64,000 nucleotides of DNA from SAR202 cluster bacterium Io17-Chloro-G2 (GTDB lineage Bacteria > Chloroflexota > Dehalococcoidia > Lucifugimonadales > UBA3495). Shown here piece by piece: positions 3,516 through 63,991 of the stretch. The position numbers and the translations under genes are program-made. Position 1 is the first letter of the stretch, and every line of letters starts with the position of its first letter. The stretch spans positions 9,864 through 73,863 of the forward strand of contig MUCP01000012.1 in assembly GCA_002816875.1 (NCBI GenBank), read 5' to 3'. The notes below the pieces were generated by a model, which was not told the origin of the DNA, ran no database searches, and saw only the letters and a list, made by a program, of their open reading frames with translations.

Positions 3516-4847
3516 TCAGGCTAGCTTGATATGGGCGTAGGCATCCAGTCCGGCGTATGCGGCACGGTCACCCAACTGGGATTCGATACGCAACAGCCGG
3601 TTATACTTGGCCACCCTTTCAGACCTGGCCGGCGCGCCCGTCTTGATCTGGCGCACATCCCAGCCCACCGCCAGATCGGCGATGGTGGTGTCTTCGGTCT
3701 CCCCCGACCGGTGGCTCATGACCGTCCCCCATCCGGCGTTGCGGGCCATCTTGAACGCGTTATGGGTTTCGGTCAACGTGCCGATCTGATTGGGTTTTAG
3801 CAAGACCGCCGTACCCGCTTTGGTGTCGATACCGCGCTTGATCCGTTCCAGGTTGGTCACGAAAACATCGTCGCCCACTAGTTGAACGCCATCGCCGACA
3901 CGGCTGACCAGTTCCTGCCATCCTTCCCAATCGTCTTCGTCCAGCCCGTCCTCGATGCTGATTATGGGATACTGCCGCCGCCACACATCGTAAAGATCGA
4001 TGAGCTCGCCAGCCGTCAAGGTGGTTCCCTCCCTGGCCAAGACATATTTGCGCTGGCCCCGGTCAAAGAGTTCGGAAGCCGCCACATCCAGATTTATATA
4101 TACGTCGCTCCCAGGCCGGTATCCAGCCGATTCAATCGCCTTCACTACCAATTCCAAGGCATCCTGGTTGGAGGGCAGGCTGGGGGCGAAGCCGCCTTCA
4201 TCCCCCACGTTCAGGTTGTGGCCGCCGTCCCTAAGCAAACCCCGCAAAGCATGGTATATCTCCACCCCACACCTGAGGGCTTCTGAAAACGATGGCAATC
4301 CCGCCGGAGCCACCATGACCTCCTGAACATCGGTGGAGTCGGACGCGTGCCGGCCGCCGTTCAAGATATTGAACATCGGCACCGGGAGCGACACCCGGCC
4401 ACCCCGGGACAGGCGTTGCCACAGCCTTTCCTCGGTGGGATGGGCGTCGTTGGCCGACATGGCTCCAGCTTTGGCCACCGCCATGGAAACGGCCAGTATG
4501 GCGTTGGCCCCCAGGTTCCCCTTATTCGGCGTGCCGTCCAACTCTATCAGGTGTCCATCGATTTCGGCTTGGTCCAACGGAGACCGGCCGGCCAGCGCGG
4601 GGCCGATGACACGGTTCACGTTACCAACCGCCTTAGATACTCCCGCGCCGCCATACCGGCTGGAATCGCCATCCCGCAATTCAACCGCCTCATGGGTCCC
4701 GGTGCTGGCCCCCGAGGGAGCGGCGGCACGGGCAGTAATGCCGTTTGCAAGAACGACCTCCGCCTCGACGGTGGGATTGCCTCTAGAATCCAGGGTCTCC
4801 CGGCCTGTGACGGCGGCGATTTTCAGTCCGCCCGAGGATTGGGACAT
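3516..4847 (-). CDS. eno: Enolase (phosphopyruvate hydratase)
   Basis: 443 aa. N-terminal [13 protein letters not shown] and C-terminal [17 protein letters not shown] signatures. Confidence 0.97.
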
Positions 4848-4996
4848 TTTGTATCGTCCTTGATGGTGGGAACTTTAGGATCCCGGTCCGGCAGCGGGCG
4901 CATAAAAACGCCCTTGGCCTGCCCGTGGCCTCACGGAGATGTGCGGTCTACATCAAGCGTTCAGATTGGACCCGTCCGGGACTGGTGCATCGGGGC

Positions 4997-5491
4997 TTAG
5001 CCTCCCAGGTGGCGGGCGTTGGCTGCGGCCATTGCTTTGTCCACCGCGTCCACCGGGCCGGACGCCGGTATTATCGCGTCATCCACCGGCTGTCCGTCCC
5101 CGTTCCGGGACAGATTCCAAGTCTTTAAGCCTATTACAGGTATGCCATCGCCCAGGGCATGCCCAATCTCCGACAGAGTGCCGTACGCGCCGCCGATGGC
5201 GATGACCGCCTGTCCAGTCTTGACCACGATGACGTTACGCGAGTACCGCATCCCGGTGACAATGGAAATATCGACGTATTTGTTCGCCTCTTGGGAGGAC
5301 AGGCCAGGCAGTATCCCGATGGTCATACCGCCTTCTGCTTTGGCTCCCCGGCACACGGCTTCCATGATGCCGGTAAGACCCCCGCAAACAACCTGGACGC
5401 CCCGTTTGGCCAGTTCCCGGCCCACCTGCTCGGCCAATTCCACGTGTTCGGTGGTCGCGGGTCTACTGCTTCCAATCACCGCGATTATCAT
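4997..5491 (-). CDS. TIGR00725/LOG-like Rossmann-fold protein
   Basis: 164 aa. MIIAVIGSS..., VVCGGLTGIMEAVCRGA and AIGGAYGTLSEIGHAL resemble the LOG/TIGR00725 pattern as I recall it. Confidence 0.65.
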   Translation of the reverse strand: MIIAVIGSSRPATTEHVELAEQVGRELAKRGVQVVCGGLTGIMEAVCRGAKAEGGMTIGILPGLSSQEANKYVDISIVTGMRYSRNVIVVKTGQAVIAIGGAYGTLSEIGHALGDGIPVIGLKTWNLSRNGDGQPVDDAIIPASGPVDAVDKAMAAANARHLGG

Positions 5492-5620: not shown

Positions 5621-7138
5621 TCATGCGCCGGGCAGGATCGCCTGGCTGGCCGCCTCGATCAGGTCCAACAACGGAGCAGGGTATACACCGGCCAACACCA
5701 CCGCCAGCATGCTTATTGCCAGCACGCCGAGCATCAAGAAGGACGGCGAAAGGTTCTGTTCAGGCTCATAAACAATTCCGTCTTCCCTTTCTGACCCGGC
5801 GGCCACATATTCCGGAACCGGTTCGATGTACATTTGCCGGATCACCTTGAGGTAGTAATAGATTGAGATCAGGCTGGCGAATATCGCTAAACCCGCAAGC
5901 CAGAGAAATCCTCCGGTGGCTACGGCGACGAATAGATAGAACTTGATGGCGAACCCGGCGAAGATGGGCAATCCGCCCAGTGAGAAGAACCCTATGGCGA
6001 TGCAGGCGGCCAGAAAGGGCTGCCGGTCGGCCAAGCCGGCCAGGTCAACTATCTCCTCTCTCCCGGTGAGGTTGAAGAATGCGATGATCGCGGCGAACAC
6101 CAAAAGGTTTGTGATTGAGTACCCCACCAGGTAAAGCATGACACCGTTGGAAGCCAGGACCGAAGACGGCGCAAGTGCGGCGATCCCCGCCAGCAGGAAC
6201 CCGACGTGGCCGATGGAAGAGTAGGCCATAAGACGTTTGAGATTCGTCTGGGCCAAGGCCACCAGGTTGCCCACCAGCATAGTGACCGCGGCCAGCACCG
6301 CGAATATGATCTGCCACTGGCTCCACAGGTCTTCGGCGGGAACGAACCCTTCGGCCACCAAACGTAATATCAACGCAAAGGCAGCCGCCTTGGAACCGAT
6401 GGCCAGGTAGGCTGTAACCGGCAACGGTGCGCCTTCGTACACGTCGGGCGCCCACATATGAAATGGCACGGCCGACACTTTAAAACCCAGTCCCACTACC
6501 AGCAACGCCAGGCCGGCCCACAGGGCGGGAGACACATCCCCAGCCGAGCCAAGGGCCAAACTGATATCGGCGAACCGGGTAACACCCACGCTGGAATAGA
6601 TCATGCTCACGCCATACAAGAGGATGGCCGACGAGAAAGCGCCGATGAGGATGTATTTCAGACCCGCTTCGTTGGATTTGGGCTCGCCCTTCGCGTAGGC
6701 GGCCATCACGTAGAGGCAAAAGCTCAAAAGCTCCAGGGCTATGTAGGCGGTAAGCAACTCACGGGATTGGGCCATGACGTTCATGCCCAATATCGAAAGC
6801 AACAATAGCCCGTAAAACTCGCCGGGATTATCCAACCTCCGGTCCACGTATTCCATTGAGGTGAAGATGATCAAGATCCCCAGGCCCAGAAAGAACACCT
6901 TGAAGAACAGGGAGAAGGCGTCAACGGCCAGGAGACCGCCGTAAAGCGTCTCCTGGCGTCCCCAAAGCATGTATAGGGACAGGGCGATGATCCCGGCTAA
7001 TCCCGCCGCCGAAAGCCAGGGCGTGACCTGTTTCTTGCCATCGGGCAGGAACAGGTCGATCGCCAGAATGCCCAGGGCCAATCCGGCCAGGGCGAACTCC
7101 GGAGACAAAAGGCCGATATTTTGGGTCAATTCAGGCAT
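5621..7138 (-). CDS. nuoN: NADH-quinone oxidoreductase subunit N
   Basis: 505 aa, polytopic antiporter-like subunit. Last gene of the nuo series. Confidence 0.9.
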   Translation of the reverse strand: MPELTQNIGLLSPEFALAGLALGILAIDLFLPDGKKQVTPWLSAAGLAGIIALSLYMLWGRQETLYGGLLAVDAFSLFFKVFFLGLGILIIFTSMEYVDRRLDNPGEFYGLLLLSILGMNVMAQSRELLTAYIALELLSFCLYVMAAYAKGEPKSNEAGLKYILIGAFSSAILLYGVSMIYSSVGVTRFADISLALGSAGDVSPALWAGLALLVVGLGFKVSAVPFHMWAPDVYEGAPLPVTAYLAIGSKAAAFALILRLVAEGFVPAEDLWSQWQIIFAVLAAVTMLVGNLVALAQTNLKRLMAYSSIGHVGFLLAGIAALAPSSVLASNGVMLYLVGYSITNLLVFAAIIAFFNLTGREEIVDLAGLADRQPFLAACIAIGFFSLGGLPIFAGFAIKFYLFVAVATGGFLWLAGLAIFASLISIYYYLKVIRQMYIEPVPEYVAAGSEREDGIVYEPEQNLSPSFLMLGVLAISMLAVVLAGVYPAPLLDLIEAASQAILPGA

Positions 7139-7144
7139 TTCAAC

Positions 7145-7300
7145 TTGGTAACTATCCCAAAAGGTGGTTCGACGGGCTCACCACGAACGGAGAGGATTCT
7201 TCTTACCCGTTCGTTCTGAGCTCCGACCGGAGGCCGCGAGTGGCGACAGAGTCGGACCTGTCGAAGGATGGTCCATCTTAGAGAGACGGTCTTGCGATAT
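7145..7300 (+). repeat. Dispersed intergenic repeat, long form (copy A), between nuoM and nuoN
   Basis: About 155 nt, nearly colinear with 31656-31822. Shared strings: ttggtaactatc, tcaccacgaacgg, cgttcgt(c/t)ctgagctcc, ggaggccgcgagt, gtcggacctgtcgaaggatggtccatctt. Confidence 0.85.
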
Positions 7301-7341
7301 ATTTTCACTACCAGTCGCCGCCCAGCCATAAATTCCTTCAT

Positions 7342-8853
7342 TTATATCCCCGGCAGGGAGGCCACGCCCACGTTGATGACGCGCATCATAGGCTCGGGCC
7401 ACACTCCCACGCCGATCAATATGACTACGAAAACACCGCCCACGGCTTTTTCCACCGGGCTGGCGTCGGTGAGGTGCTCCCACCGGGGGTCCATCTCGCC
7501 AAGGAACGTGCGGGCCAATAACCTCAAGATATATACCGCCGTCAACGCCGCCCCCACCACCGCCAGAATGGCCAGCGGCAGATAGGTGCGGAACGCCCCC
7601 GTGAATACCATGAATTCGGCGATGAAACCGCTGAGGCCTGGAAGCCCCAACGACGCCAAACCCGCGATGGCAAAGAAGAAGCTATTCACACGCATCCGGC
7701 CGAACAATCCATTCAAAACGTAGATGTCCCGGATGTGCGCCCGGTCGTACACCGCTCCCACCAAGAGGAACATAAGGGCCGTCATGATCCCATGGGAGAA
7801 CATCTGCAGCACCGCGCCGCCGACGCCGATGGGATCGAGGGTGGCAATGCCCATGAGCACGTACCCCATGTGGCTCACGCTGGAATAACCCACAACGTAT
7901 TTGAGGTCCGTCTGGGACATTGCCGATACGGCGCCGTATAGCACGTTGACCGTGCCCAGGGTGATCAACAGGGGCATCCAGTTCTCTGCGCCCTCGGGCA
8001 GGAGCACCATGCCCACCCGGATGATGCCGTAAGCGCCCAGCTTCATCAGTACGCCGGCATGCAGCATACTCACCCCCGTGGGCGCCGCTACGTGCCCGTC
8101 GGGCGACCAGGTGTGGAACGGCCATAGGCCCGCCAAAACACCAAATCCAACCATGAAGAGGGGGAAAACCCAAGTCTGGAACTCCTCGCTGATACTGCCG
8201 CTGGCGGCCAGGTTCCCCAAATCCTCCAACGAGAAAGTGGGCGTACCCAGGGTGGCCGATTTCACGTACAAAGCCAGGATACCGATCCAGACCAGAATGC
8301 TTCCCGCGATCAGATACAGGAACAGTTTCATCGCGCTGTATTCTTTGGTCCGCAGGAAGGAGCCAAAGTCGGTGCTGCTGCCCCATACGCCGATCAGCAG
8401 ATACATGGGAAGCACCGCCAGCTCGTAGAAGAAGAACAGGAAGAACAGGTCCCGTACCACGAAAACGCCGAAAACCCCCGCTCCCAGGGCTTGCAACAAC
8501 ACGAAAAAATCCCGGGTCCGGGTGCGGATGGTCTGGGAGATCAAGACCGCGCCCAAAAGCACCAAGCCGTTGAGCAAGATGAGCGGAGCGGAAATCCCGT
8601 CCACCGCCAGGGATAGATCGATATTTATCGGGGCTTCGAGCCACTGGAACGATCGGGCCAGTTGAAAGCCGCCCGCGCCATAGTCGTAGCTGACAAAGAT
8701 GTACAGGGACAACAGCAGGCAAACAACTGAAACGCCAATGGCGAAATACCAAGCGTCTCCCGGCCTATCCTTGGGCAAGAACATGGTCAACACAGCCCCC
8801 AGCAAGGGAACCATGATGATCAAGAACAACGCCGTCTGTTCCAAGCTGCTCAT
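7342..8853 (-). CDS. nuoM: NADH-quinone oxidoreductase subunit M
   Basis: 503 aa antiporter-like membrane subunit. Position in the operon fits. Confidence 0.9.
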   Translation of the reverse strand: MSSLEQTALFLIIMVPLLGAVLTMFLPKDRPGDAWYFAIGVSVVCLLLSLYIFVSYDYGAGGFQLARSFQWLEAPINIDLSLAVDGISAPLILLNGLVLLGAVLISQTIRTRTRDFFVLLQALGAGVFGVFVVRDLFFLFFFYELAVLPMYLLIGVWGSSTDFGSFLRTKEYSAMKLFLYLIAGSILVWIGILALYVKSATLGTPTFSLEDLGNLAASGSISEEFQTWVFPLFMVGFGVLAGLWPFHTWSPDGHVAAPTGVSMLHAGVLMKLGAYGIIRVGMVLLPEGAENWMPLLITLGTVNVLYGAVSAMSQTDLKYVVGYSSVSHMGYVLMGIATLDPIGVGGAVLQMFSHGIMTALMFLLVGAVYDRAHIRDIYVLNGLFGRMRVNSFFFAIAGLASLGLPGLSGFIAEFMVFTGAFRTYLPLAILAVVGAALTAVYILRLLARTFLGEMDPRWEHLTDASPVEKAVGGVFVVILIGVGVWPEPMMRVINVGVASLPGI

Positions 8854-14732: not shown

Positions 14733-14790
14733 ACGACCGTTCCTGCCGTTCGTCCTGAGCCTGTCGAAGGACATGCTTTCGGGTTTCACG
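14733..14790 (+). repeat. Dispersed intergenic repeat, short form (copy C), just upstream of nuoD
   Basis: acgaccgttcctgccgttcgtcctgagcctgtcgaaggacatgc carries the uninterrupted core gtcc-TGAGCCTGTCGAA-ggac. Confidence 0.75.
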
Positions 14791-14807: not shown

Positions 14808-15062
14808 CTATTCCACGAATTCCAGTTGGACCTCAGTATCATCTTCAACCCCGGGAAACCCGGCGTCCGCCAGCGTCTGGCCCAGCCCGCCCAGGCTGTC
14901 GATGCCGTCGTGATCTTGGATCCACGCCCTCACCACCTCTATCAGTTCGTCCTTGGCTACCTCCACCGAGTCGCCGGAGGCCTCCAGAGTCAGCTGATCC
15001 ACCTTGGCCACGTAGCATCCTTGATCCCAAGTGACATGGGCGGTCAACAGCACGGTTTCCAC
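14808..15062 (-). CDS. Small HicB-like/UPF0150-like protein embedded in the nuo operon
   Basis: 84 aa with a GTG start 5 nt after the nuoC stop. LLTAHVTWDQGCYVAKVDQLTLEASGDSVEVAKDELIEVVRAWI matches the HicB-type pattern (G-x-Y-V-A ... G-x-S-x-E-x-A ... W-I). Confidence 0.55.
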   Translation of the reverse strand: METVLLTAHVTWDQGCYVAKVDQLTLEASGDSVEVAKDELIEVVRAWIQDHDGIDSLGGLGQTLADAGFPGVEDDTEVQLEFVE

Positions 15063-15067
15063 TGCCT

Positions 15068-15694
15068 TTAGAACTCCTGATATTCGTGGAAGGGGAACTC
15101 CTTGCGGCCGGGGAACCCTTCGAATCCTTCATACAACAACAATGGCGCCAAGTCCGGATGGCCCTCGAACACCACCCCAAATAGATCGTGAGCCTCCCGC
15201 TCATACCAGTCCGCGGCACGCCACACCGATGCCACCGAAGGAGCTTTTGGCTGGTCGTAGGTGACGTCGGCCTTGATGACCATGGTCCCTTCGGGGTCGA
15301 TGGAATGGAGCATGTACACCAACTGGAAATATTCCTCGTAATCCACGCAGGCAAGGCACATCAGTTGACTTGCGCTGATCCCAGGGTCGTCCTTGAGCAC
15401 ACGGCAGACCTTGGCCAGGTCGGCGGACATCACGGTGACCTGGGGAAGGTCTTGAAGAGCGGCAACCTGGGGATGAAAATTCGCCAAGGCCAACTCCAAC
15501 CTGTTCAACAATTCTCGAGCCGGTGCAGCCAAACCGCTTAGGTCCGGTTGCGCGCTGACTTCGGCTTGCGTAGCTTCGGCTTGCGTAGCTTCGGCTTGCG
15601 TAGCTTCGGCTTGCGTAGCTTCGGCTTGCGTAGCTTCGGCTTGTGTAGAAGCAGCCGGTTGGACGTTATCCTGTTCCGCCACCGTCAACCGCAT
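15068..15694 (-). CDS. nuoC: NADH-quinone oxidoreductase subunit C with repeat-containing N-terminal extension
   Basis: The C-terminal two thirds is NuoC-like ([19 protein letters not shown]). Start chosen at ATG 15694; GTG 15682 is also possible. The track start at 15775 lies inside nuoB. Confidence 0.88.
15559..15648. repeat. Perfect 15-nt tandem repeat, 6 copies, in frame within nuoC
   Basis: cttcggcttgcgtag occurs 5 times, plus one copy with a single mismatch. It encodes (TQAEA)x5-TQAEV on the minus strand. Confidence 0.95.
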
Positions 15695-20561: not shown

Positions 20562-21605
20562 CTACCAGTTGGGAGAGTGATCCTCCGCCGTGTTGTTGGT
20601 CAAGCGGCGCTGTTGGCTGCCATCGGCGTTCATAACGAAGATCTCCGACTGGCCGTACAAGCTGGACACGAACGCGATCCGGCTGCCGTCGGAAGACCAG
20701 TCCGGGGCCAAATCATCGGCTTCGTTTTTAGTCAGCCGCCTCTGCTTTGAGCCGTCCACCCTCATGGAGTAGATCTCGGCGCTGCCGTCCCGGTAGGAAA
20801 CGAAGGCGATCTTTCGGGCGTCGGGCGACCAGTTGGGCGAAACATCATCGGCCTCGTGTTGGGTTAACCTGGTGATTTCCACCCCGTCTTGCCACGTCCC
20901 ATCGGCTAACTTCCGCATGACGAACAGATCAGCATTTCCGCCGTCCCAGCGCACGAATGCGATGTGCTTGCCATCCGGAGACCATACGGGGTCCCGGTCT
21001 TGGCCGGTTGTCATCCGCACCAGATTGACGCCGTCTGGGTTGCGCAGCCACAGTCCCCGCTCCTCAATTGCCCCCTCACTGTAGTACACCAGCCACTCCC
21101 CATTGGGCGACCAGTCTCCCAGAAGGTCTGGGGTCCCATTGGAGGTTATCCTGGTGACTGGGCCACCATCGGCGCCCATTAAATAGACTTCTGGCGTACC
21201 TTCTTGCTCGGATATGAATGCCAGGCGCTTGCCATCAGGAGACCACCTGGGAAAGCGGTCGTCGCCTCCGTTGTGTGTCAGGCGTTCGATGGATTTTCCA
21301 TCTGGGTCAACCACGTTGATTTCCATGTCTCCCGCCTGGTCTGACATGTAGACGATCTTCTTTCCGTCGGGCGACCATTGGGGAGATAAGTCGCGGCTGC
21401 GGTTATCGGTTATTGCGGATGCTTCTCCCGTTTTGGCGTCCACCACCACTATCTCAGGGTCGCCACCAACCATGGAGACGAACACCAAGCGGCCGCCGGC
21501 CGCCGGGTTGCACGCCGCCGCCATCAGGACCGCCAGCGAAAGCGCCATTACCAGAGCCATCAGTCCCCATATCTGAGTGTAGCCGAATAATCTCATTCCA
21601 CCCAC
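20562..21605 (-). CDS. TolB-like PD40 beta-propeller lipoprotein
   Basis: 347 aa. Signal sequence with lipobox-like LMAAAC. Repeated P(D/N)WSPDG(K/S)xIAFVS units occur about 6 times. Confidence 0.85.
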   Translation of the reverse strand: MGGMRLFGYTQIWGLMALVMALSLAVLMAAACNPAAGGRLVFVSMVGGDPEIVVVDAKTGEASAITDNRSRDLSPQWSPDGKKIVYMSDQAGDMEINVVDPDGKSIERLTHNGGDDRFPRWSPDGKRLAFISEQEGTPEVYLMGADGGPVTRITSNGTPDLLGDWSPNGEWLVYYSEGAIEERGLWLRNPDGVNLVRMTTGQDRDPVWSPDGKHIAFVRWDGGNADLFVMRKLADGTWQDGVEITRLTQHEADDVSPNWSPDARKIAFVSYRDGSAEIYSMRVDGSKQRRLTKNEADDLAPDWSSDGSRIAFVSSLYGQSEIFVMNADGSQQRRLTNNTAEDHSPNW

Positions 21606-25993: not shown

Positions 25994-26070
25994 TAAGTAA
26001 TTATCTTAAAAATGGTTCGTCCTAAGCTTGTGGAAGGACGGTCCATTTTGGATAGACGGGTTTGAGATGT
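25994..26070 (+). repeat. Dispersed intergenic repeat, minimal form (copy D)
   Basis: gtaattatcttaaaaatggttcgtcctaagcttgtggaaggacggtccattttggatagacgggtttgagatgt aligns end to end with the flanks of copies A and B but lacks their internal insertions. Confidence 0.75.
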
Positions 26071-26171: not shown

Positions 26172-29096
26172 ATGGGGTTAAAGTACGGGGCGCCTGATCC
26201 TTTGCAGCAGGTCCACGTGGCATTGGACCTGGAAACCACCGGCCTTGATTCAAACAGAGACGCCATCATTGAGATTGGTGCGGTCAAGTTTCAAGGCGGC
26301 GAGGACATCGACACCTTCCAGACATTTATAAAGCCGGCCCGGCCCATCCCTGACTTCGTCCAGCGGCTGACCGGTATCTCTCCCGACCAGGTCAGCCGGG
26401 CGCCCTTGTTTTCCAGCGTGTCCCGGGATTTGGAAGACTTCATCGGCGCCAGCCCCGTTATCGGGCATAACGTTTCCTTCGATCTCCGCTTTTTGGACAG
26501 CCACGACCTCCCTCTGGCCAATACAACATACGACACCTGGGACTTGGCGTCGGTATTGTTGCCCCGCACAACCCAATATTCCCTGGGGTTTCTAGCTTCT
26601 CATTTCGGCGTGGTTCACGACAAAGCCCACCGGGCCCTGGACGACGCCAAGGCAACTCAGCACGTTTTTCTGGCTTTGCTACAGGAGGCGGCGGCTTTAG
26701 ACCCTGGTCTCCTGGCACACCTGGCCAATTTGGCCCAGCGCAGCGATTGGTCGATAGCCCCGCTCCTCATGGGGCTAGAACAAGCGCGCAACGGACCGGG
26801 TCCCAATGCCGCGGCCTCAGTGTTCGGTCTAACCGGCCTGGACCTGGAAAGTATCGGCTCGCGGCTGGGAAGGGTGGAAAAACGCCGTGCCGAACCCACA
26901 CTGGCATCAATGGACGAAGACAAGATCAGCGGGCTTCTCAGCTCAAACGGTCCCTTCTCCAAAGCCTTTGAGGGTTTCGAATACCGGCCGGAGCAAGAGC
27001 AGATGTTGGCGGCGGTGACCAATGCCATCTACCAGGGCCAACACCTGGTGGTGGAAGGCGGCACCGGCGTGGGCAAATCCATGGCCTATCTGCTGCCGGC
27101 CGCTTTATTCGCTGTGTCCCAAGGGCAAAGGGTGGTCATCTCAACTAATACCATCAACCTCCAAGAACAGTTGATGAGCAAAGACATCCCAGCCATGATC
27201 AGCGTGCTGGAGGACTCCGGCTTAGTCAGCACGGGAGTGATCAAGGCCGCCCAACTTAAGGGCCGCGCCAACTATCTATGCCTCAGGCGCTGGAATTTCC
27301 TGGCGTCGGCCGAGTCGCCCAGCGTAGACGACGCCCGGCTGCTGGGCAAAACGTCGGTTTGGCTGCAGAACACGGTCAACGGTGACCGTGGCGAGATAAA
27401 CCTTTCGGGACGGGACGCATTCACTTGGACCCGCGTTTCGGCCGGCGAGGGCGGATGGTGCCCCGGGCTTCGTGACGGAAGCCCCTGTTTTTTGAGGACC
27501 GCCCGGGAGAGGGCTGACCAAGCCCACCTCATCGTGGTCAACCATGCCCTGTTGATGTCGGACCTGGCCCGGGGCGGCAGCCTGATCCCCGACTACCAAC
27601 ACCTGATAATCGACGAGGCCCACAACTTAGAAGACGCCGCGACCCGCCAGTTGGGCTTCAAGGCCGGTCCCGATGGCCTGGACGATGCCCTGGAGACCCA
27701 CGGCCGTCTCATCACCCAGTTGCGCCTGGCCATGGCCGCCGAAGGGTTGGCCTCACCCGTGCGGCAAGAAGCCGAGAAAGTAGTGGGAGACGTGGAGGGG
27801 GCCGCGCCGCGCCTGCGTGAAGTATGGGCGCGGCTATGGTCGTCGGCGGAACGTTTTTTTACAGGGTCCCGGAAAGGCCGGGGAGAGGGTCCAGACGCTG
27901 GTCAAAGCACCGGCCAATCCTTGTTGTTGACCCAGGCGGGTTCCGGTAGCGGCGGCAGCCGGGACGGCCAGCAATGGGCTGAGTTGTCCCTGGATTGGGA
28001 GAACGCCGGCGCGGTCTTGCAGCAGACAGTTCAAGGCTTGGAGCGCATAGGCCGTTTCTTGCAAACCGACCCTTTGCCGGGGCCAACCGACGGGCCGACC
28101 CTGGCCATGGAGGCGGGCAACATTCAGGACAAACTGGAGCAGCTTCGCGTCCAGCTGGACTCCATTTTGGGCGGGCACGACCCTAAAGCGATCCACTGGA
28201 TGGACCGGGGAATGAACCGCGGGCAATCCCGGGACCAAGGGGGGGCCGACCTCTCGTTCAACTCCGCGCCTCTAGAGGTGGGCGCCACCTTGGCCGAGCA
28301 ACTGTTCGACAGCATGGATAGCGTGGTGTTGACCAGCGCCACTCTCAGCACCCAGTCGAACTTCGAATACATCCGGCACCGCACCGGCCTGCCTGAGGAG
28401 AGCGGGGAGTTGTTGGTGGGCTCGCCTTTCGATTATCAGAAGGCGGCGCTGCTGCTGATTCCCGACGACATGCCCGCGCCCAACCAAGACGGATATCTTG
28501 ACGCCATAACCAGAGTGTTGGGCAGTTTGGGCAAGACCCTGGATGGCCATACCATGGCCCTTTTCACGTCCTATTCGGCGCTGCGGGCAGTGGCCCAAAA
28601 GTTGCGGAGCCAGTTGGTGGTAGACGGAGTCGAGGTCTTGGCCCAGAGCGTGGATGGGTCGCCCCAGCAACTCTTATCTCGCTTCATAGCCAACCCGGCC
28701 AGCGTTTTGCTGGGCACCAGCAGCTTTTGGGAGGGTGTCGACCTTCCCCCGGGGGTGCTAAAAGCCCTGGTGTTGACCCGGTTGCCCTTCGGCGTGCCCA
28801 CAGACCCGATCATTAAAACCCGGTCGGAACAATACCAGGACCCATTCAAAGAGTTTTCCATTCCCCAGGCGGTGCTCCGGTTCCGCCAGGGCATTGGAAG
28901 ATTGATTCGAAACAAGGGCGATAAAGGAAGCATCATCGTCCTGGACCGGAGGATAACCGGCCGGTCCTACGGCGGGGCCTTTATGCAGTCCATTCCCCCT
29001 TGCACCCTGAAGCCCAGCAGTCTGTTCACGGTGGCCGACCTTTCGGCCGATTGGATCGGAAAGGGTGCTCCGGCCAATCCCGGAGTGAAGCGGTAG
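26172..29096 (+). CDS. dinG: DinG-family ATP-dependent helicase with N-terminal DnaQ-like 3'-5' exonuclease domain
   Basis: 974 aa. Exonuclease motifs ALDLETTGL and HNVSFD..., HRALDDA. Helicase motifs GTGVGKS, DEAHNL and a C-terminal FWEGVDLPG-like segment. Confidence 0.85.
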   Translation: MGLKYGAPDPLQQVHVALDLETTGLDSNRDAIIEIGAVKFQGGEDIDTFQTFIKPARPIPDFVQRLTGISPDQVSRAPLFSSVSRDLEDFIGASPVIGHNVSFDLRFLDSHDLPLANTTYDTWDLASVLLPRTTQYSLGFLASHFGVVHDKAHRALDDAKATQHVFLALLQEAAALDPGLLAHLANLAQRSDWSIAPLLMGLEQARNGPGPNAAASVFGLTGLDLESIGSRLGRVEKRRAEPTLASMDEDKISGLLSSNGPFSKAFEGFEYRPEQEQMLAAVTNAIYQGQHLVVEGGTGVGKSMAYLLPAALFAVSQGQRVVISTNTINLQEQLMSKDIPAMISVLEDSGLVSTGVIKAAQLKGRANYLCLRRWNFLASAESPSVDDARLLGKTSVWLQNTVNGDRGEINLSGRDAFTWTRVSAGEGGWCPGLRDGSPCFLRTARERADQAHLIVVNHALLMSDLARGGSLIPDYQHLIIDEAHNLEDAATRQLGFKAGPDGLDDALETHGRLITQLRLAMAAEGLASPVRQEAEKVVGDVEGAAPRLREVWARLWSSAERFFTGSRKGRGEGPDAGQSTGQSLLLTQAGSGSGGSRDGQQWAELSLDWENAGAVLQQTVQGLERIGRFLQTDPLPGPTDGPTLAMEAGNIQDKLEQLRVQLDSILGGHDPKAIHWMDRGMNRGQSRDQGGADLSFNSAPLEVGATLAEQLFDSMDSVVLTSATLSTQSNFEYIRHRTGLPEESGELLVGSPFDYQKAALLLIPDDMPAPNQDGYLDAITRVLGSLGKTLDGHTMALFTSYSALRAVAQKLRSQLVVDGVEVLAQSVDGSPQQLLSRFIANPASVLLGTSSFWEGVDLPPGVLKALVLTRLPFGVPTDPIIKTRSEQYQDPFKEFSIPQAVLRFRQGIGRLIRNKGDKGSIIVLDRRITGRSYGGAFMQSIPPCTLKPSSLFTVADLSADWIGKGAPANPGVKR

Positions 29097-29109: not shown

Positions 29110-29988
29110 GTGGAGATAAAGACGGACCAACCCTTTGATTTGGCATCCTCGCTGGAGAGCGGGCAGGCCCACCGGTGGCGCCTGGACGGAGATTGGTACG
29201 CCGGGGTGGTCAGAGGAAATTTCATCAAGATGCGGCAAACCTGCGGAGGATTCGAGTTCCGGTCCCAACCCTCGGCAGAAGAAACTCTGGTCCCCATGCT
29301 TGAGGATTATTTCCGCCTGGACGACGATCTGCCGGCGATCTACGGAGAGATAAAGCAGGACCAGAGGGTAGCAACCATGGTGGACCAGTACCCCGGCCTG
29401 CGGGTGTTGCGCACAGAACCGTGGGAATGCTTGATTGCCTTCATCTGTTCCGCCAACAACAACATATCCCGCATCCACCAGTTGATGGAAAGGATGTCGG
29501 AGACGTTCGGCGAGCCCTTGCACTTGGACGGCCAGGTCCGGTACACCTTTCCCGGCCCGGCGGAACTGGCCGAGGGTGGTGAGATGGAGTTGCGCCGCCT
29601 GGGATTGGGTTTCCGGGCGCCCTACGTCGATCAGGCAGCCCGCCGGGTGCTGGAGGGCAACCTAGATCTAGACCAGCTTACCGTGGCTCCGTACCAAGAG
29701 GCCAAAGAGCGCCTGATGGAGTGCAAGGGCATTGGCTCGAAGATCGCCGATTGCATCGCCGTATTTTCCCTGGAAAAGTTAGAAGCATTCCCTATAGACG
29801 TTTGGATACGGCGGGCCCTGGCGGAATGGTATTTTCCAAACCAGAAAAAACCTTCGGATCGAGTACTTCTGGAGTGGGCCCAAAACTACTTCGGCCGCTA
29901 CGGAGGCTACTCGCAGCAGTACCTATTCCACGGTCGGCGGTTGGAGAAGGCACGACGGCAGGCAACTTCTTCCGAGACCGCGCAATAG
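29110..29988 (+). CDS. ogg: 8-oxoguanine DNA glycosylase/AP lyase (OGG1-type HhH-GPD)
   Basis: 292 aa, GTG start 13 nt after the dinG stop. Contains the HhH-GPD segment ECKGIGSKIADCIAVFSL...FPIDVWIRR with the Lys expected for bifunctional OGG. Confidence 0.75.
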   Translation: MEIKTDQPFDLASSLESGQAHRWRLDGDWYAGVVRGNFIKMRQTCGGFEFRSQPSAEETLVPMLEDYFRLDDDLPAIYGEIKQDQRVATMVDQYPGLRVLRTEPWECLIAFICSANNNISRIHQLMERMSETFGEPLHLDGQVRYTFPGPAELAEGGEMELRRLGLGFRAPYVDQAARRVLEGNLDLDQLTVAPYQEAKERLMECKGIGSKIADCIAVFSLEKLEAFPIDVWIRRALAEWYFPNQKKPSDRVLLEWAQNYFGRYGGYSQQYLFHGRRLEKARRQATSSETAQ

Positions 29989-31655: not shown

Positions 31656-31822
31656 TTGGTAACTATCTCAAAAGATGGTTCGCCCCGATTACATCGGGGT
31701 CACCACGAACGGAGGAGGTTCTTTCCGTCCGTTCGTCCTGAGCTCCAACGGGAGGCCGCGAGTCGCGACAAAGTCGGACCTGTCGAAGGATGGTCCATCT
31801 TGGATACACGGTTTTGAGATGG
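31656..31822 (+). repeat. Dispersed intergenic repeat, long form (copy B)
   Basis: Colinear with copy A, plus an extra hairpin module ccccgattacatcgggg. Contains the interrupted core cctgagc[tccaacgggaggccgcgagtcgcgacaaagtcgga]cctgtcgaagga. Confidence 0.85.
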
Positions 31823-31876
31823 TTTCAAAGCCGTGACGAACCACACGTCGCAAATAGTTGATAGCTGAGTTCTGGT

Positions 31877-45663: not shown

Positions 45664-45731
45664 CGAATACCCGCTGCCGATTGGTCTCGGTCCCCGGCCT
45701 GCAGCAGCCCCTAGATTTGCGAGACCCACTC

Positions 45732-45840
45732 CCGCTCATGGTGAGCTTGTCGAACCACGGCGATGAAGTTTGCAGTTACTTCGATCATTGGCGCTTGCCT
45801 CTATTAAGAACTGGTCCTTCGACAAGCTCAGGATGAGCGG
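45732..45840. repeat. Inverted pair of the dispersed-repeat core (locus E) in a convergent intergenic zone
   Basis: The left arm is ccgctcatggtgagcttgtcgaaccac. The right arm is the reverse complement of ccgctcatcctgagcttgtcgaaggaccag. The arms are about 52 nt apart. Confidence 0.85.
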
Positions 45841-45936
45841 TTTTGGTCATCCGCAATAGGTTATGGCATGCGGGGCGTTGATTTATCGGATTAGCTTGCC
45901 CATCGTAAACGCATGAGCAATCGCCCCAACCGAACT

Positions 45937-45966
45937 CCGCTCATGGTGAGCCCGTCGAAACGCACA
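45937..45966 (+). repeat. Solo degenerate copy of the repeat core (locus F)
   Basis: ccgctcatggtgagcccgtcgaaacgcac. Confidence 0.6.
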
Positions 45967-48853: not shown

Positions 48854-49028
48854 ATCAACCTCTCGATAGTAGTTGCCTTCATTGTATGACCCGGGTTCGG
48901 CACGAACCTGATTCGGGTGACCTCTGGGCAAGTGAGGCCCAACGGTTCTGATCCACATGCCGTTCTGCGTCAACCTGCCGCACTTCCACGGCGGAGTTAG
49001 TGGTTGGCCACCGGCTGTTGTTAACAAC

Positions 49029-49112
49029 CAATCCTTCGACAAGCTCAGGGCGAACGGATTCAGGCATTTTTACTGGTCGTGGTGACCCCGATGCAATCGG
49101 GGCGAACCATCG
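49029..49112 (-). repeat. Dispersed intergenic repeat (locus G), immediately downstream of mutS
   Basis: The minus strand reads ggttcgccccgattgcatcggggtcaccacgacc...ccgttcgccctgagcttgtcgaaggattgg. Confidence 0.8.
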
Positions 49113-52192: not shown

Positions 52193-52351
52193 GGTTCGCC
52201 CCAATTGCATCGGGGTCACCATGAGCAGTGTGAGGCCGGGCCGGCTGGTTTCGGGTCGCCGGCCGCGAGGCTCGCCTCCTTGGCCGGCGGCTGTTAGCCA
52301 TCACTGAGCACCAAAACCACTCATCTTGAACTTGTCGAAGGACTGTCCATC
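52193..52351 (+). repeat. Dispersed intergenic repeat (locus H)
   Basis: ggttcgccccaattgcatcggggtcaccatgagc ... ggccgcgagg ... ctcatcttgaacttgtcgaaggactgtccatc. Confidence 0.75.
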
Positions 52352-63916: not shown

Positions 63917-63991
63917 GCCCCGGTGGCGCAATGGAAGCGCAGTCGACTTGTAATCGACAGGTTAGGGGTTCGAATCCCCTCTGGGGCTCCA
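63917..63991 (+). tRNA. tRNA-Thr, anticodon UGU, with genomically encoded CCA
   Basis: Hand-folded cloverleaf: acceptor gccccgg/ctggggc, D arm gcgc-aatggaa-gcgc, anticodon arm gtcga-cTTGTAa-tcgac, T arm agggg-ttcgaat-cccct, discriminator t, then cca. Confidence 0.9.

What the first reader, a model, noticed from the sequence alone, without database searches (positions are those of the whole stretch)
7145..7300. A modular, nested, hairpin-forming dispersed repeat family occurs at 8 or more loci, with compensatory stem changes
Loci: 7145-7300, 14733-14790, 25994-26070, 31656-31822, 45732-45840 (inverted pair), 45937-45966, 49029-49112 (minus strand) and 52193-52351. The minimal copy (25994-26070) aligns with the two ends of the long copies. 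The long copies look like the same unit with insertions: a ggttcg-CCCCGAT-trc-ATCGGGG-tcaccacgaacgg module after ggttcg, and a tccgac...gtcgga hairpin splitting the core cctgagc|ctgtcgaagga. An outer stem covaries: aaGatgg/ccatCtt in copy B, aaAatgg/ccatTtt in copy D, and a G-U pair in copy A. The inner stem flips as well: tcc-TGAGCYTGTCGAA-gga versus tgg-TGAGCTTGTCGAA-cca, while the 13-nt loop stays constant. A conserved loop with a covarying stem suggests a structure-specific ligand, such as a REP/RAYT-like or IS200/IS605-like ssDNA recognition site or a structured RNA, rather than junk. All copies are intergenic, and several lie at gene 3' ends.
Basis: seen in the sequence. Interest (0 to 1): 0.6.

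Follow-up and report, generated by a model that had tools for sequence, protein, structure and literature searches.

The report
Pan-bacterial REP-like hairpin repeat family
The eight loci are real copies of a small hairpin-forming intergenic repeat of the REP (repetitive extragenic palindrome) kind. Its 24-base core recurs almost letter for letter in many bacterial phyla, I could not find it catalogued, and what copies it is unknown.

Summary
The basic unit is CCGTTC, a 4-bp variable stem, an invariant 13-nt TGAGCYTGTCGAA, the matching stem, and optionally GAACGG. The stem covaries strongly across 124 independent units. The source is a SAR202 Chloroflexota genome. There the units sit inside 75-165-nt composite palindromes, with extra small hairpins nested in the unit loops. 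Two relatives have an empty nuoM|nuoN spacer, so copy A is an insertion.

The core is not specific to this genome. It occurs in Alpha-, Beta- and Gammaproteobacteria, Chloroflexota, Cyanobacteria, Nitrospirota and other phyla. It appears mostly as head-to-head doublets whose two units carry different stems, without target duplications, and more often between convergent than divergent genes. That is REP/BIME/REPIN-like behaviour.

It lacks the GTAG and CGTC tags of the described REP superfamilies and matches no Rfam family. No RAYT gene flanked by it was found, and one RAYT gene is disrupted by it. Solitary units show no bias in orientation relative to transcription.

Best reading: an uncatalogued REP-class family whose mobilising agent is unknown. 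Moderate interest.

The parts
7149..7301 (+). Copy A: composite palindromic element between nuoN (5621-7138, -) and nuoM (7342-8853, -)
   Evidence: Sequence. The site is empty in relatives L220 and L222 and filled in L219. Predicted to fold as nested hairpins.
7164..7190 (-). Copy A, unit 1, with the invariant 13-mer on the minus strand: GTGG-TTCGACGGGCTCA-CCAC-GAACGG
   Evidence: R1 hit 7156-7192(-), 41.2 bits, E 6.8e-9. This sequence was a row of the training alignment, so the hit is by construction.
7207..7269 (+). Copy A, unit 2: CCGTTC-GTTC-TGAGC-[35-nt hairpin TCCGAC..GTCGGA, about 7222-7256]-CTGTCGAA-GGAT
   Evidence: The hairpin is absent from the orthologous unit in L219.
14746..14772 (+). 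Copy C: solitary unit CCGTTCGTCCTGAGCCTGTCGAAGGAC. It lies 18 nt upstream of the nuoD start, inside the nuo operon, which is transcribed on the minus strand.
   Evidence: R1 45 bits, E 6.6e-10. The 22-nt core is identical at the orthologous site of L222, while the flanks have diverged. It is a deletion remnant of a full composite.
25994..26070 (+). Copy D: minimal composite, made of the outer stems plus one degenerate unit GGTTCG-TCC-TAAGCTTGTGGAA-GGA
   Evidence: R1 hit 26011-26047, E 0.01. Fold.
31656..31832 (+). Copy B: composite with outer inverted repeats TTGGTAACTATCTCAAAA / TTTTGAGATGGTTTCAAA
   Evidence: 85% identical to copy A over 126 nt (family D2).
31674..31712 (-). Copy B, unit 1 variant. 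On the minus strand it reads GTGG-TGA-[CCCCGAT-GTA-ATCGGGG]-CGAA-CCATC: the apex is replaced by a hairpin while TGA...CGAA is kept.
   Evidence: R1 hit 31667-31714(-), E 0.06.
31729..31791 (+). Copy B, unit 2: CCGTTC-GTCC-TGAGC-[hairpin]-CTGTCGAA-GGAT
   Evidence: R1 E 0.0086.
45732..45840 (+). Head-to-head doublet: CCGCTCATGG-TGAGCTTGTCGAA-CCAC, a 55-nt spacer, then GTCC-TTCGACAAGCTCA-GGAT-GAGCGG. It lies between the convergent 3' ends of an amine oxidase gene and mutL.
   Evidence: R1 hits at 45730(+) and 45806(-), E about 1e-8; both sequences were training rows. Pfam context.
45937..45963 (+). Solitary unit CCGCTCATGG-TGAGCCCGTCGAA-ACGC (3' arm decayed)
   Evidence: R1 E 8.6e-6; a training row.
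49029..49112 (-). Copy F: hairpin-variant unit (49073-49108) plus a standard unit (49032-49057). The copy ends 13 nt from the mutS stop codon (mutS is 49126-51807, -).
   Evidence: R1 hit 49023-49059(-), E 8.9e-9. MutS identified.
52193..52351 (+). Copy E: hairpin-variant unit (52193-52229), a GC-rich central palindrome, and the unit CCACTCATCT-TGAACTTGTCGAA-GGAC (52317-52343)
   Evidence: R1 hit 52315-52351, E 2.8e-5.

Best explanation
The loci are copies of a REP-class (repetitive extragenic palindrome / BIME / REPIN-like), non-coding, non-autonomous repeat.

Its elementary unit is a hairpin: a conserved foot CCGTTC, a 4-bp stem of free sequence, an invariant 13-nt TGAGCYTGTCGAA, the complementary stem, and, in solitary complete copies, GAACGG, which closes a 10-bp stem. 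The 13-mer can close itself with U:A, tandem sheared G.A/A.G (both strands have the YGAR context) and G:C, leaving a 5-nt apex. This is inferred, not shown.

The hairpin forms in single-stranded nucleic acid, and that pairing is what keeps the stem complementary. Units usually come as head-to-head doublets whose two members carry different stems, so each folds locally instead of forming one perfect long palindrome.

In this SAR202 (Chloroflexota) genome the units are embedded in a lineage-specific 75-165-nt composite palindrome. That composite has inserted into intergenic spacers, including two inside the nuo operon. Small GC hairpins have since nested into the unit loops.

Shown here: family membership, stem covariation, presence/absence at orthologous sites, heterodimer bias, absence of target duplications around simple doublets, and enrichment between convergent genes.

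Inferred: spread occurs through a single-stranded DNA hairpin intermediate, handled by a trans-acting enzyme or by host replication and repair rather than by a linked gene. New hairpins tend to enter exposed loops or the centres of existing palindromes. Once transcribed, the hairpins act like other REPs, as 3'-end barriers that affect segmental mRNA stability or termination.
For: Family and anatomy. There are 290 units with at most 1 mismatch in the 13-mer in 953 kb of loci plus the window. TGAGCTTGTCGAA occurs 135 times and TGAGCCTGTCGAA 108 times.

Stem. 244 of 290 units have the three inner pairs, against a shuffle mean of 74 and maximum of 92. On 124 units not constrained by the search pattern, the covariation score is 0.354 against 0.153 for shuffles (0 of 500 reach it) and at most 0.143 for slid partners. 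Each of the four pairs shows 3-5 standard pair types.

Breadth. Taxa include Alpha-, Beta- and Gammaproteobacteria, Dehalococcoidia and Anaerolineae, cyanobacteria, Nitrospirota, Myxococcota, Desulfuromonadales, Campylobacterota and Dadabacteria.

Arrangement. At up to 2 mismatches in the 13-mer (459 matches, some of them chance), there are 97 head-to-head pairs with spacers mostly of 12-60 nt, 32 tail-to-tail, 39 tandem, and 172 units with no neighbour within 300 nt. Only 6 of 114 doublets have two units with the same stem type, against 21.6 expected by permutation (no permutation as low in 5000).

No abutting direct repeat of 3 nt or more in 106 of 109 simple doublets (85 have none at all), and no flank motif.

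Location. 53 clusters are co-directional, 29 convergent and 14 divergent, against a background of 322/105/108.

Mobility and turnover. The nuoM|nuoN spacer is 203 nt with the element in the window and 176 nt in L219, but 29 and 36 nt without it in L220 and L222. Hairpin modules differ between orthologous copies. The DUF1489|rpoN spacer of seven Sphingobium chromids holds a doublet, a single unit, a loop-expanded unit, or a CGTC-type REP, depending on the strain. In Crenothrix a composite is inserted into a coding gene, with 24-nt inverted ends and a TA duplication.

No recurrent neighbouring gene family.

Published REP biology matches. Head-to-head heterodimers, a 3'-end and convergent location, REP dimers nested in longer palindromes, and a cross-phylum superfamily (CGTC) with no dedicated transposase are all described (PMC3733652).
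Against: No mobilising enzyme was identified, so 'REP-class' rests on anatomy and behaviour only.

In classical REPs the stem is conserved and the loop is free. Here it is the reverse.

Identity of a 24-mer across phyla is more extreme than is usual for REPs. It could instead reflect a conserved host ligand or frequent horizontal transfer. Neither was tested.

The tandem G.A closure is a reading of the sequence. ViennaRNA simply predicts an 11-bp stem with an 11-nt loop. One orthologous variant (L219) has lost the 5' TGA.

The RNA-level effects are inferred from other REPs and were not measured.

Gene calls used for the location statistics were crude: 31 of 149 clusters fell inside 'predicted' ORFs.
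Confidence: 0.6

Rival explanations
1. REPIN/REP-RAYT system. The units are REPs mobilised by a single-copy REP-associated tyrosine (Y1/HUH) transposase encoded elsewhere in each genome. The enzyme would recognise the hairpin and its 5' foot on single-stranded DNA.
For: Inverted doublets of hairpins without target duplications are the REPIN design (PMC3337134 and PMC3116915, listed). The SAR202 loop-replaced variant reads GTGG-TGA-hairpin on one strand. This resembles the GTGGTGA foot listed for a Pseudomonas fluorescens REP in the supplement of PMC6006769. RAYTs are usually single-copy, so missing one in sampled loci is expected.
Against: There is no GT[AG]G foot in most units (GCCC, GTCC, GGGC, GTGC stems). 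phmmer with E. coli RayT against every ORF of about 1.8 Mb of loci found one RAYT only. It is split at its HUH motif by the element and has GTAG-type REPs of its own. The RAYT genes on a Chloroflexota plasmid and in one Anaerolineae-type locus (L227) are flanked by GTAG REPs. The Methylomonas plasmid locus and two further Anaerolineae-type loci hold no unit of this family. R1 finds no unit in 73 kb around the Anaerolineae-type RAYTs. Sphingobium chromids with up to 14 copies carry no RAYT. REP families normally differ between species, whereas this core is the same across phyla.
Confidence: 0.12
2. Primarily a functional RNA element. The hairpin would be kept because a conserved RNA-binding factor or RNase reads it in mRNA, for example as an operon-internal stabiliser, processing site or U-tract-less terminator.
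For: Copies sit inside the nuo operon and within 13-50 nt of stop codons. The 22-nt unit is identical at the orthologous nuoC|nuoD site of a relative whose NuoN is 81% identical, while the flanks have diverged. There is an excess between convergent genes. G.U-compatible pairs outnumber A.C 111 to 31 in the stem.
Against: No Rfam family matches. Solitary units show no orientation preference relative to the flanking genes (9 sense, 11 antisense). The G.T excess is confined to one pair (92 to 14). Different palindrome families replace each other at the same site, which argues against a sequence-specific RNA role at that site. The hairpin is predicted to be equally stable in both orientations.
Confidence: 0.15
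3. Ordinary DDE-transposase MITE. The inverted repeats would be terminal inverted repeats bound as double-stranded DNA by an IS630/Tc1-like or other transposase, and the hairpin potential would be incidental.
For: The Crenothrix insertion has 24-nt imperfect terminal inverted repeats and a TA duplication. The SAR202 composites have outer inverted repeats (AACYATCTCAAAA / TTTTGAGAT) and show presence/absence polymorphism.
Against: The outer repeats differ between genomes, and even between two copies in Crenothrix, while the core is constant. At most, MITEs carry the core. 85 of 109 simple doublets have no abutting direct repeat, and only 3 have one of 3 nt or more. Compensatory changes within each 4-bp stem are not expected for a double-stranded DNA binding site. 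No transposase recurs near the copies.
Confidence: 0.1
4. IS200/IS605-type palindrome-associated element. The hairpins would be the subterminal left- and right-end structures recognised by a TnpA(IS200) enzyme.
For: The hairpins carry conserved sequence, there is no target duplication, and single-stranded DNA logic fits.
Against: The doublets are symmetric, with the same unit on both strands, whereas IS200/IS605 ends lie on one strand. There is no conserved 4-5-nt target next to one end. No tnpA or tnpB lies near the copies.
Confidence: 0.04
5. No ligand at all. The stems stay complementary through a mutational mechanism, namely template switching between the arms of quasi-palindromes during replication. 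The family would be selfish or neutral DNA spread by horizontal transfer.
For: Covariation shows only that the arms pair. One strain (MM15) shows a correlated change between the two units of a doublet. Perfect long palindromes are avoided, which is a DNA-level signature. There is rapid turnover at orthologous sites.
Against: It does not explain why the non-palindromic 13-mer and the CCGTTC foot are at least 90% invariant at nearly every position across phyla. Nor does it explain why loop-expanded variants usually keep TGA...CGAA.
Confidence: 0.12

Closest known systems
CGTC-tagged REP superfamily (Di Nocera, De Gregorio & Rocco 2013, BMC Genomics 14:522; includes Neisseria dRS3 and Rickettsia RPE-4/6)
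   Same: Short intergenic hairpin repeats nearly identical across several phyla and most abundant in Alphaproteobacteria. Predominantly head-to-head dimers, often heterodimers. Located after genes. No dedicated transposase. Dimers sometimes sit in the centre of longer palindromes. A CGTC REP occupies, in some Sphingobium strains, the very spacer that this family occupies in others. There is local sequence resemblance: CGTC-AT-GCTGAAC-TTG-GTTCAGC versus CGTTC-GC-CCTGAGC-TTG-TCGAAGG.
   Different: The foot is CCGTTCG, not CGTC. The stem is 4 bp of free sequence (10 bp with the foot), not 8-9 bp beginning with AT. There is an invariant 13-nt non-palindromic segment instead of a 4-5-nt loop, and no CCA tail. 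The motif is absent from that paper's text and supplements. It is also common in Beta- and Gammaproteobacteria and in Chloroflexota.
GTAG REPs / REPINs with RAYT (TnpA-REP), and E. coli BIMEs
   Same: Hairpin units occur in inverted pairs. The two members of a pair are of different types, as with Y/Z REPs. There are no target duplications. The location is 3'-proximal. The long hairpin is imperfect, with bubbles.
   Different: No GT[AG]G foot. No flanked RAYT was found. RAYT loci carry other REPs, and one RAYT is a victim of insertion. The core is shared across phyla rather than being lineage-specific.
IS630/Tc1-type MITEs such as Neisseria Correia elements
   Same: The composite forms have terminal inverted repeats, a size of 75-165 nt, and intergenic insertion including within operons. 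One insertion shows a TA duplication.
   Different: The conserved part is the internal core, not the termini. The termini are lineage-specific. Simple doublets have no duplication.
Small dispersed repeats nested in other repeats in cyanobacteria (Elhai et al. 2008; recalled from memory, not checked here)
   Same: Very small hairpin-forming elements are found inserted inside other repeats.
   Different: Those are restricted to cyanobacteria and have different sequences. No comparison was run.

Membership tests
REP/REPIN-RAYT system | 5' GT[AG]G tetranucleotide at the foot of the hairpin | tested here: not met
   The foot is CCGTTC. The position next to the 13-mer is GCCC, GTCC, GGGC, GTGG, GTGC or GGCC and pairs with the 3' arm.
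REP/REPIN-RAYT system | A RAYT (Y1_Tnp, PF01797) gene flanked by the same repeats (REPtron) | tested here: not met
   No RAYT locus examined was flanked by this family. Crenothrix L117, the Chloroflexota plasmid L225 and L227 carry GTAG-type REPs. The Methylomonas plasmid L226 and L229-231 hold no unit. In L117 the gene is interrupted by the element. Whole genomes could not be scanned.
REP/REPIN-RAYT system | Two hairpin units in inverted orientation forming an imperfect long hairpin, with no target duplication | tested here: met
   97 head-to-head pairs. No abutting direct repeat of 3 nt or more in 106 of 109 doublets. Stems mismatch between partners.
CGTC REP superfamily | Unpaired CGTC (TGTC/CCTC) tag, 8-9-bp stem starting with A-T pairs, 4-5-nt loop, CCA tail | tested here: not met
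   Unit anatomy, compared with the description in PMC3733652.
CGTC REP superfamily | Predominantly head-to-head dimers, often heterodimers, with no associated transposase | tested here: met
IS200/IS605 palindrome-associated elements | Different left- and right-end hairpins on the same strand, with a conserved 4-5-nt target abutting the left end | tested here: not met
   The doublets are symmetric and the flank logo shows no motif.
DDE-type MITE | Family-wide terminal inverted repeats plus a target-site duplication of fixed length | tested here: inconclusive
   Met for one composite in Crenothrix (24-nt inverted ends, TA). Not met for simple doublets. The boundaries of the window composites could not be fixed to the base.
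Described RNA families (Rfam 15) | Match to a curated covariance model | tested here: not met
   Only tRNA reached the gathering score in the window and in 18 loci from other phyla. An E-value scan of copy B gave only one chance-level hit.
Integron attC sites | R''(RYYYAAC)...R'(GTTRRRY) order, within cassette arrays next to intI | tested here: not met
   The order here is GTT...AAC (CCGTTCG...CGAACGG). Copies are dispersed between housekeeping genes. The family is abundant in Alphaproteobacteria, which are reported to lack integrons (from memory).

The most novel reading that the evidence does not exclude
This is a third, pan-bacterial REP superfamily ('CCGTTCG-foot'). Its invariant 13-nt segment would form a G.A-zippered hairpin read by an as yet unidentified, widely conserved structure-specific protein: either a new kind of single-stranded DNA mobilising enzyme or a universal host factor. 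The obligate pairing of two stem classes in each doublet would be part of that recognition.
Probability: 0.2. Interest if true: 0.75.

Novelty: new variant of a known kind. Interest (0 to 1): 0.45.

Why it matters
REP-type repeats are among the commonest non-coding features of bacterial genomes. Only the GTAG class has a known enzyme; the CGTC class has none.

A further family may exist with an even more widely conserved core and an unusual design. Its 'loop' is invariant, its stem is free, and its doublets are always heterodimers. Such a family would sharpen the open question of how transposase-less palindromic repeats spread and why they are kept.

There is also a practical side. Its translation gives recurrent spurious peptides, such as FDKLRANG, VRPELVEG, LSLSKG and LTTNG. 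This is derived by translating the consensus, and I recall such peptides from 'hypothetical proteins' (from memory, not tested). A model of the family would therefore help to clean gene calls in metagenome-assembled genomes.

For this window specifically, the family explains eight intergenic oddities. It also shows that two of them are insertions inside the nuo operon of a SAR202 bacterium.

Tried and rejected
- Rfam. A gathering-threshold scan of the window and of 18 loci, and an E-value scan of copy B, gave nothing.
- Literature. Full-text searches for the 12-13-mers and for the peptides the repeat encodes found no relevant paper.
- Metagenome scan for the outer part of the SAR202 composite: 0 hits. 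The outer stems could therefore not be tested on more copies.
- Viral contigs: only 89 stretches, many within phage-like head-tail (structural) gene clusters. Viruses are not an obvious vector.
- Unbiased clustering of ORFs near the copies: no recurrent partner gene. Genes lying between neighbouring copies are ordinary.
- RAYT hunt by phmmer, by tblastn of plasmids, by a protein-database search and by four context look-ups. RAYTs have their own GTAG REPs.
- Loop-to-loop pairing within doublets. The variable Y/R position is statistically independent between partners (TA 31, TG 21, CA 17, CG 10), so no selection for the long hairpin is seen there.
- Complementarity or similarity of the 13-mer to the E. 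coli rRNA operon: none beyond chance.
- K-turn, hammerhead, attC, LexA-box and tRNA-like readings were considered from the sequence and dropped, because the defining positions do not fit.
- Fixing a target duplication for window copy A from the empty sites: ambiguous.
Full report
1. WHAT IS IN THE WINDOW

The window has 59% G+C. It comes from a SAR202-cluster Chloroflexota bacterium: its NuoN protein is 100% identical to one from 'SAR202 cluster bacterium Io17-Chloro-G2', and nuoD lies on an ENA metagenome scaffold.

Reading the eight reported loci and scanning for the core confirms a repeat family. All copies are intergenic.
- Copy A (about 7149-7301) lies between nuoN and nuoM.
- Copy C (14746-14772) lies 18 nt upstream of nuoD. 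It follows a conserved 84-codon ORF that itself follows nuoC.
- Copy D (25994-26070) lies between a PHP-domain gene and a DinG-like helicase gene.
- Copy B (31656-31832) lies between an alcohol dehydrogenase gene and a CCA-adding-enzyme-like gene.
- 45732-45963 lies between the convergent ends of an amine oxidase gene and mutL.
- Copy F (49029-49112) ends 13 nt from the mutS stop codon.
- Copy E (52193-52351) lies between mutS and a ferredoxin-reductase-like gene.

2. THE UNIT

The elementary unit is 5'-CCGTTC-(R)NNN-TGAGCYTGTCGAA-N'N'N'(Y)-3'. Solitary complete copies continue with GAACGG, so the foot pairs as well and the stem becomes 10 bp.

The 'ggttcg...tcaccacgaacgg' part of the long copies is therefore not an insertion. 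It is a second unit in the opposite orientation: GG-TTCGACRRGCTCA-CC-ACGAACGG.

Copies A and B are tail-to-tail pairs of units inside outer inverted repeats (AACYATCTCAAAA-GATGG ... CCATC-12 nt-TTTTGAGAT). Copy D has the same outer parts around one degenerate unit.

Three units (31677, 49080 on the minus strand, 52193) have the six central bases of the 13-mer replaced by CCCCGAT-TRC-ATCGGGG. Two units (in A and B) have a 35-nt hairpin between TGAGC and CTGTCGAA.

3. THE FAMILY IS NOT SPECIFIC TO THIS GENOME

The taxa are:
- Sphingomonadales, Burkholderiales, Nitrosomonadales, Methylococcales, Moraxella and Lysobacterales;
- Dehalococcoidia, Anaerolineae and other Chloroflexota;
- cyanobacteria, Nitrospirota, Anaeromyxobacter, Desulfuromonadales, Sulfuricurvum and Dadabacteria;
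- one Eubacteriales MAG.

In 953 kb of these loci plus the window there are 290 units with at most one mismatch in the 13-mer. 243 of them carry one of the two exact 13-mers.

Viral contigs hold only 89 matching stretches. Plasmid records hold 28, mostly Sphingobium chromids of about 1 Mb, and none is annotated.

4. IS THE HAIRPIN REAL?

Among the 290 units, 244 can form the three pairs next to the 13-mer. Shuffled partners give a mean of 74 and a maximum of 92.

My search pattern fixed part of the stem. I therefore aligned 124 distinct units that the pattern had not selected (alignment A1) and counted pairs. Counting outward from the 13-mer, the four inner pairs are CG 77/GC 35, GC 89/CG 18/AU 4, UA 54/GC 38/CG 17 and GC 59/GU 26/AU 10. 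The covariation score is 0.354, against 0.153 for shuffles (0 of 500 reach it) and at most 0.143 when the partner is slid by 1-3 columns.

The outer six pairs (CCGTTC/GAACGG) hold in about a third of the units, namely the solitary complete hairpins.

Every position of the 13-mer except the sixth (Y) is at least 90% conserved.

The consensus 33-mer folds far better than shuffles, both as RNA (-20.6 kcal/mol, z -5.1) and as DNA (-13.1, z -5.3), and in both orientations.

Four of the eleven window hits were rows of A1 and match by construction.

The claimed covariation in the outer stem is one G-C to A-T double change in copy D, plus a G.T in copy A. With three copies and one ortholog it cannot be evaluated.

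5. A READING OF THE 13-MER (INFERENCE)

TGAG and CGAA both have the YGAR context in which tandem sheared G.A pairs are stable. This is established nucleic-acid chemistry, recalled rather than tested.

The 13-mer could therefore close as U:A, G.A, A.G and G:C around a 5-nt apex, CYTGT.

In favour: variants with expanded loops usually keep the flanks and change the apex. Examples are:
- TGA-[CCCCGATGYAATCGGGG]-CGAA in the window;
- TGAGC-[hairpin]-CTGTCGAA in A and B;
- TGA-[27 nt]-CTTGTCGAA in L222;
- TG-[hairpin]-TGTCGAA in Sphingobium MM7A.

Against: one variant (L219) has lost the 5' TGA, and the folding programs do not predict the closure.

A sister motif, TGAGCGCAGCGAA / TGAGCGAAGTCGAA, was seen in several loci.

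6. ARRANGEMENT

These counts use matches to the 13-mer with up to 2 mismatches, 459 in all, some of which are chance matches outside the family.

Neighbouring units are head-to-head (foot outward) in 97 cases, with spacers mostly of 12-60 nt. They are tail-to-tail in 32 and tandem in 39. A further 172 have no neighbour within 300 nt.

The two units of a doublet almost never carry the same stem: 6 of 114, against 21.6 expected by permutation, with no permutation as low in 5000. The usual pair is a CCC/TCC-type unit with a GGC/TGC/TGG-type unit. Only 2 of 80 doublets are perfect palindromes through the stems.

The one variable loop position is statistically independent between partners. Local hairpins, not the long hairpin, are therefore what is conserved.

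Simple doublets have no flanking motif. 85 of 109 have no abutting direct repeat, and only 3 have one of 3 nt or more. The flanks are merely G-poor upstream and C-poor downstream.

With rough gene calls, 53 clusters lie between co-directional genes, 29 between convergent genes and 14 between divergent genes. The background is 322, 105 and 108. Solitary units have the 13-mer on the sense strand 9 times and on the antisense strand 11 times.

G.T pairs outnumber A.C pairs 111 to 31 in the stem. Almost all of this excess is at the outermost of the four pairs (92 to 14). I regard it as suggestive only.

7. MOBILITY AND TURNOVER

The nuoM|nuoN spacer is 203 nt in the window and 176 nt in a relative with 90% NuoN identity (L219), and both contain the composite. 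It is 29 nt in Io17-Chloro-G9 (L220, L221) and 36 nt in L222, without it. Copy A is therefore an insertion.

The window and L219 copies are orthologous, yet they differ by hairpin modules in the unit loops. The 35-nt hairpin is present only in the window. A TCCGCC-TTA-GGCGGA hairpin is present only in L219. This confirms that the nesting is dynamic.

At nuoC|nuoD, L222 has a full composite. The window keeps a 27-nt remnant whose 22-nt core is identical to that of L222, while the flanks are about 50% identical.

In seven Sphingobium chromids the DUF1489|rpoN spacer is conserved up to both stop codons. Between them it holds, depending on the strain, a doublet, a doublet plus an extra half unit, one unit, a loop-expanded unit, or a different palindrome, cgTCATGCTGAACTTGGTTCAGCATCCA. 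The last fits the published CGTC REP description.

In Crenothrix sp. D3 a composite of about 125 nt, with 24-nt imperfect terminal inverted repeats and a TA duplication, interrupts a RAYT gene exactly at ..LLPDHL|HCIWTLP... A second doublet 450 nt away has different outer repeats. The outer layers are therefore lineage-specific, or even copy-specific, while the core is constant.

8. WHAT MOBILISES IT?

No partner was found.
- Clustering all ORFs near the copies gives no recurrent family apart from phage structural genes contributed by the viral loci.
- Genes between neighbouring copies are ordinary, for example FtsZ, a short-chain dehydrogenase and a cyclophilin (assigned by eye from the translations).
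- phmmer with E. coli RayT against 12,306 ORFs from about 1.8 Mb finds only the disrupted Crenothrix gene.
- tblastn of plasmids finds RAYTs in Methylomonas, a Chloroflexota plasmid and others, but none on Sphingobium chromids.
- The Chloroflexota plasmid RAYT and one Anaerolineae-type RAYT (L227) are flanked by GTAGGGTGCG-type REPs. Model R1 finds no unit in 73 kb around the Anaerolineae-type RAYT loci.

The RAYT hypothesis is thus not supported. It cannot be excluded, because whole genomes could not be scanned.

9. COMPARISON WITH WHAT IS KNOWN

Rfam 15 has no matching family. Full-text searches for the motif and for its encoded peptides return nothing relevant.

The closest description is by Di Nocera et al. 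(2013; PMC3733652). They define two REP superfamilies, GTAG and CGTC. The CGTC REPs are very similar across five phyla, mostly alphaproteobacterial, arranged as head-to-head and often heterodimeric pairs, sometimes nested in longer palindromes, and without a dedicated transposase.

The present family shares that behaviour. It fails the structural definition on the tag, on the 8-9-bp stem starting with AT, on the 4-5-nt loop and on the CCA tail. It does not occur in that paper's text or supplements, nor in the REP table of Quentin et al. 2018.

Those authors note that families with unpaired residues would have escaped their search. I therefore file it as an uncatalogued variant of the REP kind, not as a member of either described superfamily. 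One caveat applies: subscription-only literature was not searchable.

10. VERDICT

The family is REP-like and structure-constrained, but no evidence ties it to RAYT or IS200/IS605 enzymes or to a discrete RNA.

The most likely account has four parts. It is a non-autonomous hairpin repeat that pairs in single-stranded nucleic acid. It spreads in trans by an unknown agent. In SAR202 it is carried within a composite palindrome. Once transcribed, it behaves like other REPs.

The strangest features remain unexplained and deserve a genome-scale follow-up:
- near-identity of a 24-mer across phyla;
- an invariant 'loop' with a free stem;
- obligate heterodimers.

Noticed in passing
window 15544-15663: Eight tandem copies of a 15-nt unit (CTTCGGCTTGCGTAG, 98-100% identical) lie at the 5' end of, or just upstream of, the nuoC-like gene on the minus strand. 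If translated, they would add a pentapeptide repeat to the N-terminus of the 235-codon ORF. The gene call on the ENA contig starts inside the array.
   Followed up: no
window 14808-15062 (-); L222 1922-2167: A conserved 81-84-codon ORF sits between nuoC and nuoD. It is about 75% identical between the window and a relative whose NuoN is 81% identical. Its only Pfam hit is a sub-threshold match to UPF0150-like (E 0.0045). This is an unusual extra gene inside a nuo operon.
   Followed up: partly
L117 (Crenothrix sp. D3) 4386-5024: A RAYT (REP-associated tyrosine transposase) gene is split at its HUH motif by a MITE-like element of about 125 nt that carries the repeat core, with a TA duplication. 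The gene's own neighbouring REPs are GTAG-type (ctGTAGGTCGGGCAACG...).
   Followed up: yes
L124, L125 (Sphingobium TomTYG46/65), about 700-830; also L019, L042: Other cross-phylum palindromic repeat families co-occur with or replace this one. They include CGTC-type REPs (CGTCATGCTGAACTTGGTTCAGCATCCA) and a TGAGCGCAGCGAA / TCATTCTGAGCGCAGCGAAGAATC type that contains the GCGAAGC mini-hairpin motif.
   Followed up: partly
window 26172-29096, 29110-29988, 46086-47861, 49126-51807: Several repeat copies flank DNA-repair genes (a DinG-like helicase-exonuclease fusion, OGG, MutL and MutS). Di Nocera et al. remarked on REPs in or near repair genes. This may be coincidence here.
   Followed up: no
window 20657-21398: Diverged internal repeats of about 130-290 nt periodicity lie inside the ORF 20562-21605 (-). 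They correspond to PD40/Tricorn-type beta-propeller blades according to the gene call on the ENA contig.
   Followed up: no
L006 (cyanobacterium), L052, L100, L108, L095: In some genomes the unit occurs as short tandem arrays (3-5 head-to-tail copies with a period of about 24-37 nt or longer) rather than as inverted doublets.
   Followed up: no
window 63917-63988: A tRNA gene (Rfam 69 bits) is the only Rfam hit in the window.
   Followed up: no
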